From contig OY986949.1 in the NCBI GenBank assembly GCA_963920595.1, forward strand, positions 5,146,001 through 5,210,000: a stretch of DNA of 64,000 bases. The letters are read 5' to 3'. The translations under genes and the position numbers were made by a program. A model generated the notes under the pieces. The model was not told the DNA's origin, ran no database searches, and worked only from the letters and a program-made list of their open reading frames with translations. Source of the DNA: Eimeria praecox (taxonomy: Eukaryota). This document shows positions 59,298-60,470 of the stretch, piece after piece (position 1 is the stretch's first letter; each line of letters opens with the position of its first letter).

Positions 59298-59389
59298 ATG
59301 TTTCGATTGCCTCCCTGCCTGCCAGGGCCGCCGCTAAGCAGCAGGCCGACCCCCACGGCTTCTCCATCAACAACTGACTGCAGCAGCAA

Positions 59390-59462
<73 letters not shown>

Positions 59463-59935
59463 TCTCCCTGCTGCTCTTGCTTAGGATCAACTCCCCCTTT
59501 GAAATTAATTGTTGGGGGATTTAGTGAAGCCGGCATCATCACTTTCTTTACTGCAGATCGACAAACATTCTCTCTACCTGCTTCTCTTATATCAGGTTAA
59601 ACCCTAAACCCTAAACCCTAAACCCTAAACCCTAAACCCTAAACCCTAAACCCTAAACCCTAAACCCTAAACCCTAAACCCTAGATAAAATAGATAATAG
59701 ACTATCTTGATTTGCATAAAAATTCTCTGTTGTGTGATGAGCTCTTTGTCTGTCCCCTCTCTCCAGATGTTTATAAACCCTAAACCCTAAACCCTAAACC
59801 CTAAACCCTAAACCCTAAGCCCTAAACCCTAAACCCTAGATAAAAAGTTATAGGGTGGGTGTGTGAGATAGTTGATTGACTACAGCAGGAAGGATTGAAG
59901 AAACACGATAGCCCTCACCCTACTCCTGCTGCTGC

Positions 59936-59988
<53 letters not shown>

Positions 59989-60470
59989 CATCAGAGTGCA
60001 TGCATTGTTGAGGTGTATGTACACCGCAGATCCGCTGGAAGTGGGGAGTATTGTTAGTTTTTCTTTGAAGAGAAATTTTGCTGAGGAGGAGGCGAGAAGA
60101 CGAGCAGTGATAGAAGTAAGAGGGAAGGAGGAGCTGCCTATACACCTGAATATGTGTTTTGTTGCTGCTGCTGCTGCTACTGCAGCAGCAGCAGCTGCCG
60201 CTGCTGCTGCTACTGCTGCTGCAGCAGCAGCAGCAGCTGCAGCAGCTGCAGCAGCAGCAGCAGTAGATTAAATATGGTTTCTGTGTTTGTCTGTCTATCT
60301 ATCTGTGTCTCTTGTTGCTGCTGTGCTCTCTTCGGGTGTATATGCAGCTCCAAGAAGAAATCCTTGAAAATATAAAACATATAAAACCCCACAAACCCCG
60401 ACGTCTTGTTGATCCTCTGCTGCTGCTTCCGCAGGAAGAACAGCAGCAGCAGCAGCAGCAGCAGCAGTAG
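59298..60470 (+). CDS. 168-aa protein with Chs5 N-terminal (exomer dimerisation)-like domain. Exons 59298-59595, 60030-60115, 60348-60470
   Basis: Spliced product ...PPLKLIVGGFSEAGIITFFTADRQTFSLPASLIS|DPLEVGSIVSFSLKRNFAEEEARRRAVIE|LQEEILENIKHIKPHKP...QQQ*. GT-AG introns in phases 1 and 0. Pattern resembles my recollection of the fungal CHS5_N consensus (L.VG.....ALL.T.D....FP..LLP.....GSIV.I...N...E.......LQ..I). Confidence 0.7.
59598..59838. repeat. Intronic (AAACCCT)n telomere-like arrays (59598-59683, 59774-59838)
   Basis: Directly visible; begins immediately after the GT donor at 59596. Confidence 0.97.

What the first reader, a model, noticed from the sequence alone, without database searches (positions are those of the whole stretch)
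59298..60470. Stand-alone Chs5-N (exomer core)-like domain gene in an apicomplexan
Seen: three small exons buried in CAG and telomeric repeats splice in phase to LIVGGFSEAGIITFFTADRQTFSLPASLISDPLEVGSIVSFSLKRNFAEEEARRRAVIELQEEILENI. Known: the Chs5 N-terminal domain (beta strands with VG, T.D, P..L and GSIV, then a helix ending LQ..I) dimerises and binds ChAP cargo adaptors in exomer, a TGN-to-plasma-membrane adaptor generally regarded as fungal; fungal Chs5 also carries FN3 and BRCT domains. Inference: a minimal Chs5-like protein without FN3/BRCT could indicate an unrecognised exomer-like complex in coccidia. The match is by eye against a remembered consensus.
Basis: partly seen in the sequence, partly recalled or inferred. 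Interest (0 to 1): 0.8.

Follow-up and report, generated by a model that had tools for sequence, protein, structure and literature searches.

The report
Minimal exomer scaffold outside the fungi
A single-celled parasite, likely Eimeria, carries a spliced gene for a short protein related to the core of Chs5, a cargo-sorting scaffold so far reported only in fungi, and this protein would likely be the missing partner of the ChAP adaptor already reported in related parasites.

Summary
The gene is real. Three exons splice GT-AG in phase to 168 aa, and one RNA-seq contig carries both joints exactly. The 70-aa core belongs to the Chs5-N superfamily: 33-36 bits against my fungal Chs5-N profiles, shuffles at most 9.7. 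A rival appeared: prokaryotic DUF3006 is itself a Chs5-N homologue, and 7 of 144 such proteins score as high as this one, so the total score proves only superfamily membership. Three tests place it with Chs5: its top 17 of 166 pairwise hits are fungal; on the C-terminal helix alone it beats all 119 prokaryotic proteins scored; and trees join it to fungi (99/96, 96/100). No FN3/BRCT signal lies in the window. A 2018 survey called Chs5 fungal-only, using an E 1e-40 BLAST cut-off, yet found ChAP in Toxoplasma and Neospora. Not shown: a ChAP in this genome, an orthologue in another protist, binding, or vertical versus fungal origin. The scan's earlier notes held nothing on this.

The parts
59298..59595 (+). 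Exon 1: ATG, 67-aa low-complexity Pro/Ser extension (CAG repeats read as poly-Ser), then the first three predicted beta strands (59499-59595)
   Evidence: 3' end confirmed by the loose end of the X1 contig; start codon inferred
59596..60029 (+). Intron 1, GT-AG, 434 nt, phase 1; holds 20 AAACCCT telomere-like units and a TGCATGCA octamer
   Evidence: joined form seen in X1
60030..60115 (+). Exon 2: GSIV strand (predicted dimer strand) and first half of the helix
   Evidence: alone scores 14.6 bits on the fungal profile
60116..60347 (+). Intron 2, GT-AG, 232 nt, phase 0
   Evidence: joint 60115->60348 in X1
60348..60470 (+). Exon 3: end of the helix (LQ..IL, to 60374), 31-aa tail ending in poly-Gln, TAG
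   Evidence: X1 contig colinear over 60348-60440
59499..60374 (+). Chs5-N-like domain, residues 68-137 (beta part 68-114, helix 115-137), split over the three exons

Best explanation
The gene is transcribed and spliced and encodes a 168-aa protein whose 70-aa core is homologous to the N-terminal core of fungal Chs5 without FN3 or BRCT domains; it likely dimerises through its beta strands and likely binds a ChAP cargo adaptor through its C-terminal helix, which would give a minimal exomer (two small scaffolds, two ChAPs) predicted to act at the late Golgi. Shown: gene structure, splicing, homology, grouping with Chs5, no FN3/BRCT signal in the window. Inferred: dimerisation (from the fungal structures and a predicted DUF3006 dimer), ChAP binding (from the conserved helix and ChAP in related coccidia), and membrane recruitment, which would have to rest on the ChAP's own Arf contact because the FN3-BRCT module is missing. 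An ancient, vertically inherited origin is the reading I favour but did not show.
For: Splicing. Profile 33-36 bits versus shuffles at most 9.7. Pairwise search with the core against 20 fungal and 146 prokaryotic homologues: the top 17 of 166 hits are fungal (19.4-29.2 bits), best prokaryote 18.8. Against prokaryotic profiles it scores 12.4 (110 DUF3006), 22.6 (23 most Chs5-like) and 9.4 (13 archaeal), lower than fungal Chs5-N does on the same profiles (medians 20.5, 45.4, 32.3). Helix-only profile: 11.2 bits versus a maximum of 5.1 among 119 prokaryotic proteins scored; 0 of 1991 scored helix shuffles reach the real 16.9 (max 13.7). G8 and Q64 of the fungal consensus are present here and in 0 of 33 prokaryotic homologues not picked by motif. 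Trees join it to fungi: 98/94 (34 rows), 99/96 (47 rows), 96/100 with a mixture model (25 rows, bootstrap not settled). AU tests reject grouping it with 12 archaeal proteins (p 0.004) and fungi plus those 12 without it (p 0.007). PDB entries 4IN3 (Chs5-Bch1) and 4WJW (Chs5-Chs6) hold Chs5 chains of only 82 and 77 residues, so this segment alone forms the ChAP complex. ChAP is listed for Toxoplasma and Neospora, and that paper says ChAPs bind Arf directly and may have an unknown partner.
Against: No ChAP could be sought in this genome (no assembly held) and Eimeria does not occur in the 2018 supplement. No orthologue from any other protist was retrieved: exon-based searches gave 0 hits, the 120 listed of 361 hits to the fungal alignment were fungal where named and otherwise resembled fungal fragments (35 read), and the Atlas listed no stand-alone CHS5_N cluster. 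The whole-profile score does not separate it from prokaryotes: 7 of 144 score at least as high, best 41.2. On the beta part alone it is weak (11.1 bits). It matches 11-13 of 27 conserved fungal columns depending on the alignment, while Chs5-like prokaryotes match 7-12. It lacks K9, E26, F27, P33, F60 and F71; F60 lies in the helix. Forcing one bacterial protein (L236) between it and fungi is not rejected (p 0.38), and AU groups were chosen after seeing trees. It is a long branch on 74 columns. A cited title states that FN3 and BRCT are necessary for yeast Chs5 function (reference list only). Splicing rests on one contig of one run.
Confidence: 0.62

Rival explanations
1. It is a true Chs5-N homologue but no longer part of an exomer: ChAP may be lost in this lineage, or the small dimer may bind another partner.
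For: ChAP is patchy and often lost (not found in Plasmodium, Cryptosporidium, piroplasms, Vitrella or Chromera). F60 and F71 of the helix are replaced, and FN3/BRCT is absent.
Against: The helix is the part that best keeps Chs5 character, as expected if its partner surface is still used. The nearest sampled relatives keep ChAP.
Confidence: 0.18
2. Origin rival, compatible with the same function: the gene came by transfer from a fungus and lost FN3/BRCT afterwards, so Chs5 would still be a fungal invention.
For: Nesting inside the fungi is not rejected (p 0.52 and 0.49). Fungal monophyly to its exclusion has only 91/75 and 92/76 support, and holds in 36% of bootstrap trees under the mixture model. 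No second protist copy was found.
Against: Only 34% identity to the nearest fungal domain, against 47-83% among the fungal rows. The best LG+G4 and quick trees place it outside the sampled fungi. The gene is fully naturalised, with host-type repeats in introns and exons.
Confidence: 0.15
3. It descends independently from a prokaryotic DUF3006 gene, and the likeness to Chs5 in the helix is convergence or chance.
For: DUF3006 is homologous to Chs5-N (hhalign 96%, E 4.6e-9). Archaeal members score up to 38.9 bits on the fungal profile. One AU constraint separating it from fungi is not rejected (p 0.38). The prokaryotic sample is partial: 1,135 genomes from five phylum draws and five single genomes, with no Asgard archaea targeted.
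Against: It lacks the DRxEG start typical of DUF3006 (invariant in the 60-row alignment, which was selected on that motif). It scores lower on every prokaryotic profile than fungal Chs5-N does, its best pairwise hits are all fungal, and all five trees join it to fungi (and 94 reusing the tree of 90).
Confidence: 0.1
4. The model is incomplete and the real protein is a full Chs5 with FN3/BRCT exons that were missed.
For: The RNA contig does not reach the stop or the start. A profile from six fungal sequences could miss very diverged, intron-split exons.
Against: The transcript runs unspliced through 60348-60440, past the GT sites at 60403 and 60408. An FN3+BRCT profile finds nothing in the six frames of the window (best E 6.2). 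A long open frame begins at 60814 and a dynactin p62-like match follows downstream, leaving little room.
Confidence: 0.04

Closest known systems
Fungal Chs5 N-terminal region (Pfam CHS5_N PF16892 plus the following helix; exomer scaffold; PDB 4IN3, 4WJW, 4Q66)
   Same: Colinear over about 68 residues with one inserted residue. Shares VG, P..L, GS, N, E, LQ and I positions. 34% identity to the nearest fungal domain; all best pairwise hits; joined in all trees.
   Different: No FN3 or BRCT domain. Low-complexity extensions at both ends. K9, E26, F27, P33, F60, F71 not kept. The beta part alone is far below what Pfam's cut-off would need. Found in an apicomplexan, where a 2018 survey (PMC6057913) reported no Chs5.
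DUF3006 (Pfam PF11213), small bacterial and archaeal proteins of unknown function
   Same: Stand-alone protein of the same size and predicted fold (four strands and a helix). Homologous to Chs5-N by profile and by fold (top six Foldseek PDB matches are Chs5 chains).
   Different: Lacks the DRxEG start; scores only 9-23 bits on DUF3006 profiles; its helix carries the Chs5-type N..E...LQ..I pattern, with Q64 in 0 of 33 non-motif-selected prokaryotic homologues.
Orphan ChAP proteins of protists (Toxoplasma TGME49_242350, Neospora NCLIV_030810, ciliates, Dictyostelium, Trichomonas; PMC6057913 supplement)
   Same: Same pathway; the predicted partner.
   Different: A different subunit; reported there without any Chs5. 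Not examined here by sequence.

Membership tests
Chs5 (exomer scaffold) | Significant similarity to the Chs5 N-terminal region (beta part plus helix) | tested here: met
   33-36 bits on profiles of 11 and 20 fungal sequences, shuffles at most 9.7; reference sequences confirmed as PF16892
Chs5 (exomer scaffold) | Pfam CHS5_N (PF16892) hit above the 39.8-bit cut-off | tested here: inconclusive
   Single exons give no CHS5_N hit. The joined protein was not scanned against Pfam itself. My 48-column stand-in gives 11.1 bits, so a pass is unlikely.
Chs5 (exomer scaffold) | Closer to Chs5 than to DUF3006 | tested here: met
   Top 17 of 166 pairwise hits fungal; helix-only 11.2 versus max 5.1; trees 98/94, 99/96, 96/100. 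Whole-profile score alone does not discriminate (7 of 144 prokaryotic as high).
Chs5 (exomer scaffold) | FN3 and BRCT domains after the N-terminal region | tested here: not met
   Stop 31 codons after the helix; FN3+BRCT profile finds nothing in the window. It is therefore not a canonical Chs5.
Chs5 (exomer scaffold) | Homodimer through the beta part | not testable with these tools
   The spliced protein could not be folded. A DUF3006 homologue (L113) was predicted as a dimer: 0.74, best of 3 controls 0.00; mark reached by 21 of 30 solved homodimers and 0 of 23 single chains; runs agree in 100% of contacts, pLDDT at least 88; the pass may be from memory of Chs5 structures.
Exomer complex | A ChAP partner in the same organism, bound through the helix | not testable with these tools
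   No genome held; ChAP listed for Toxoplasma and Neospora, Eimeria not listed
Exomer complex | Arf1-dependent recruitment to the trans-Golgi network | not testable with these tools
   Needs experiments; yeast behaviour from PMC3496614 passages
DUF3006 (PF11213) | DRxEG start motif and strong DUF3006 profile score | tested here: not met
   12.4 bits on a profile of 110 members, whereas 8 of 8 tested members score 39-89 bits on Pfam; motif absent

The most novel reading that the evidence does not exclude
Exomer is not a fungal invention. The last eukaryotic common ancestor had a minimal exomer made of a ChAP and a stand-alone 70-residue Chs5-N scaffold derived from a prokaryotic DUF3006 protein; fungi later fused FN3-BRCT onto it, and coccidia (and probably every protist with an 'orphan' ChAP) kept the small ancestral form, overlooked because it is too short and diverged for past searches.
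Probability: 0.45. Interest if true: 0.85.

Novelty: new variant of a known kind. Interest (0 to 1): 0.7.

Why it matters
The one survey of exomer evolution that I found (PMC6057913) concluded that Chs5 is fungal-specific, left open what ChAP binds in other eukaryotes, and found no origin for either subunit. This gene offers a concrete, testable partner in a lineage whose relatives keep ChAP, and shows why it could be missed: a 1e-40 BLAST cut-off, a Pfam model that omits the informative helix, and a domain split over three exons. The DUF3006 link gives a candidate prokaryotic ancestor for the scaffold. If the complex is confirmed, coccidia have an uncharacterised Golgi cargo-sorting adaptor whose subunits have no direct sequence homologues in mammals (PMC4384092 passage).

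Tried and rejected
Single-exon searches were too short to inform: Pfam (0 CHS5_N hits in 4 pieces), word-based homologue searches (15 and 1 candidates, none at E<=10), HMMER over 1.84 billion representatives with a 33-aa query (0 hits), PDB sequences, plasmids, Atlas (best 0.76, a lead only). These blanks are weak evidence. The run search listed no holder on record as RNA; small-share rows were not used. The fungal alignment found no relatives by pattern in prokaryotic genome contigs or viral contigs, nor did P0006 in plasmids. Short CHS5_N-only hits were considered as possible protist stand-alone proteins; the 35 I read look like fungal exon fragments, and 241 of 361 hits were not displayed. 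Counting conserved columns did not separate the protein from Chs5-like prokaryotes. The whole-profile score looked discriminating (best prokaryote 28.3 bits in 602 genomes) until archaea reached 38.9, so I dropped it as a criterion. Rows dropped: 7 of 120 DUF3006-motif loci without a short ORF and 3 of the remaining 113 judged non-members by eye; 11 of 31 fungal domains as near-duplicates; 4 of 27 loci L232-L258 as short or spurious. The 69-row careful tree did not finish and only its quick tree was read. Fungal contamination was rejected because host-type repeats lie inside the gene's own introns and exons. The VIA-align fold searches did not run. The EMBO J structure paper was not held. Earlier scan notes gave three unrelated findings.

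Full report
OBSERVATION. Exons 59298-59595, 60030-60115 and 60348-60470 join through GT-AG introns of 434 and 232 nt, in phases 1 and 0, into a 507-nt frame of 168 aa plus TAG (my first attempt, used coordinates off by one). Four runs were laid on 59990-60440. Run X1, described as metagenomic RNA-Seq though flagged as a guess, has a 361-nt contig of depth 11.8 that skips intron 2 exactly, and its loose end before exon 2 is the end of exon 1 (checked by position), so both joints are seen. X19 covers intron flanks without a joint; X2 and X10 add nothing. Two of the contig's four differences were itemised and both are synonymous. The support is one contig of one run. It does not reach the start or the stop. 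ATG 59298 is the only + strand ATG from 58732 to 59600.

ORGANISM. No genome is held. The window has CAG tracts, AAACCCT/AGGGTTT heptamers (28 and 39 copies) and 18 TGCATGCA octamers against about 1 expected at uniform base use. PMC3505466 (passages) names these three as features of Eimeria tenella repeat-rich segments. I infer Eimeria or a close coccidian. The same repeats lie inside this gene's introns and exons, so it is native DNA and not fungal contamination.

HOMOLOGY. Single exons found nothing anywhere. I collected fungal Chs5 loci from metagenomes with a short recalled motif (111 loci), confirmed 4 of 4 tested as PF16892 and one against the yeast Chs5 chains in the PDB, and built profiles of 11 and 20 sequences. 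The spliced protein, built in scripts, scores 34.2 and 33.2 bits; its core scores 36.6 and 36.3 against shuffle maxima of 9.7 and 8.2. The score builds across the joints: exon 1 alone 1.3, exon 2 alone 14.6, exons 1+2 23.2, all three 34.2 bits. An FN3+BRCT profile from six fungal proteins finds nothing in the window (best E 6.2), and a dynactin p62-like gene follows closely.

THE RIVAL. Fungal Chs5-N also hits Pfam DUF3006 (E 1.3e-5). I collected 120 DUF3006-motif loci (110 kept; 8 of 8 tested confirmed). The two families are homologous: hhalign 96%, E 4.6e-9; an AlphaFold model of one DUF3006 (pLDDT 95) has Chs5 chains of 4Q66 and 4IN3 as its top six PDB matches; the Atlas agrees. Searching 1,135 prokaryotic genomes with the fungal alignment gave hits up to 38.9 bits in an archaeal phylum. 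On my 20-sequence profile 7 of 144 prokaryotic proteins score at least as high as the window's protein. The total score therefore shows superfamily membership only.

WHICH BRANCH. Searching with the core, the top 17 of 166 hits are fungal (19.4-29.2 bits) and the best prokaryote scores 18.8. On three prokaryotic profiles the protein scores 12.4, 22.6 and 9.4 bits, below the fungal medians of 20.5, 45.4 and 32.3. Splitting the profile shows where the signal lies. On the 48-column beta part it scores 11.1 and 48 of 140 prokaryotic proteins match or beat it; on the helix it scores 11.2 and none of 119 exceeds 5.1, and 0 of 1991 scored helix shuffles reach the real value. G8 and Q64 occur here and in 0 of 33 prokaryotic homologues not picked by motif. 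Trees join it to fungi at 92 SH-aLRT (quick, 69 rows), 98/94, 99/96 and 96/100 under a mixture model with a rough bootstrap. AU tests reject an archaeal grouping (p 0.004) but not one bacterial protein placed between it and fungi (p 0.38), nor nesting inside fungi (p 0.52, 0.49). It is a long branch on 74 columns, and my fungal sample is small and not checked for coverage of early-branching lineages. Against it: K9, E26, F27, P33, F60 and F71 are not kept, and the count of conserved columns (11-13 of 27) overlaps that of prokaryotes (7-12).

MECHANISM. Yeast exomer is a dimer of Chs5 with two ChAPs, recruited by Arf1 to the trans-Golgi network (PMC9066374 and PMC3496614 passages). The Chs5-Bch1 and Chs5-Chs6 crystal entries 4IN3 and 4WJW contain Chs5 chains of only 82 and 77 residues, the extent matched here. 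That the beta part dimerises, the helix binds the ChAP and FN3-BRCT contacts Arf1 is recalled from the structure papers, which I could not read. I infer a dimer whose two helices each hold a ChAP, with membrane recruitment left to the ChAP, which binds Arf directly according to PMC6057913. A DUF3006 homologue is predicted to dimerise through the equivalent last strand (0.74, best control 0.00; mark reached by 21 of 30 solved homodimers and 0 of 23 single chains; 100% contact agreement, pLDDT at least 88; possibly from memory of Chs5). This concerns the fold, not the window's protein. A cited title says FN3 and BRCT are necessary for yeast Chs5 function (reference list), so a complex without them would work differently. 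Confidence in the minimal-exomer function is 0.62.

WHAT IS KNOWN. PMC6057913 (read: parts 1-2 of 6, first part of the Discussion, Homology Searching, passages, and part 2 of 2 of supplementary file 2) reports no credible Chs5 outside fungi, used an E 1e-40 BLAST cut-off for Chs5 followed by HMMER with reverse BLAST to yeast, lists ChAP for Toxoplasma, Neospora, ciliates and others, does not list Eimeria, and supports no origin for either subunit. A domain scoring under 30 bits pairwise could not pass that BLAST cut-off. Searches for a prior report: exomer with Toxoplasma gave 3 papers, only this one on topic by its listing; DUF3006 gave 0; the Toxoplasma ChAP identifier gave 0; listings showed nothing on a non-fungal Chs5, though searches listed only 25 of 59, 40 of 362 and 40 of 3,470 papers. 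Subscription journals, bioRxiv supplements and database annotations (InterPro, UniProt, ToxoDB) were not visible and might already label orthologues.

VERDICT. A real, spliced gene for a stand-alone Chs5-N-type domain in a likely Eimeria genome. It fails one defining feature of Chs5 (FN3/BRCT), so I file it as a new variant and not as a canonical member. It makes a published open question testable. It rests on one gene, with no partner or second orthologue shown. Interest 0.7.

Noticed in passing
L112-L271 (prokaryotic loci); model m1ab82020915b: DUF3006 (PF11213) is a prokaryotic homologue of Chs5-N: hhalign 96%, top six Foldseek PDB matches are Chs5 chains, Atlas TM 0.74-0.76, predicted homodimer 0.74 against best control 0.00. 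No paper in the library holds the term DUF3006.
   Followed up: yes
window 60820-64000 (+): Downstream neighbour is a dynactin p62-like gene (PF05502, E 1.3e-5, 24.6 bits against a 25.3 cut-off), about 350 nt after the stop; no link to the finding seen.
   Followed up: partly
window 59469-59480 (+): Three cysteines (residues 58, 59, 61) just before the domain could be lipid-modification sites standing in for the missing membrane module, but they may simply be TGC repeat codons.
   Followed up: no
window 18472-20871 (-) and 52099-53262 (-): Two long ORFs (800 and 388 aa) share a short Trp-rich motif and look like paralogues; neither has a Pfam hit at E 0.01.
   Followed up: partly
window 2625-2822 (+): Exon with a DALR anticodon-binding domain (E 1.4e-16), likely the end of an arginyl-tRNA synthetase gene.
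   Followed up: partly
window 39678-40022 (+): ORF fragment that looks by eye like a retrotransposon integrase; no Pfam hit at E 0.01.
   Followed up: partly
window 57790-58500 and 57380-57470: A 700-nt CT-rich microsatellite tract and a short tandem repeat of roughly 27 nt upstream of the gene, read by eye.
   Followed up: no
L001-L111: In most of the 111 fungal Chs5 loci the reading frame leaves the family consensus at the same point after the second strand, suggesting a shared intron; that position differs from both introns of the window's gene.
   Followed up: no
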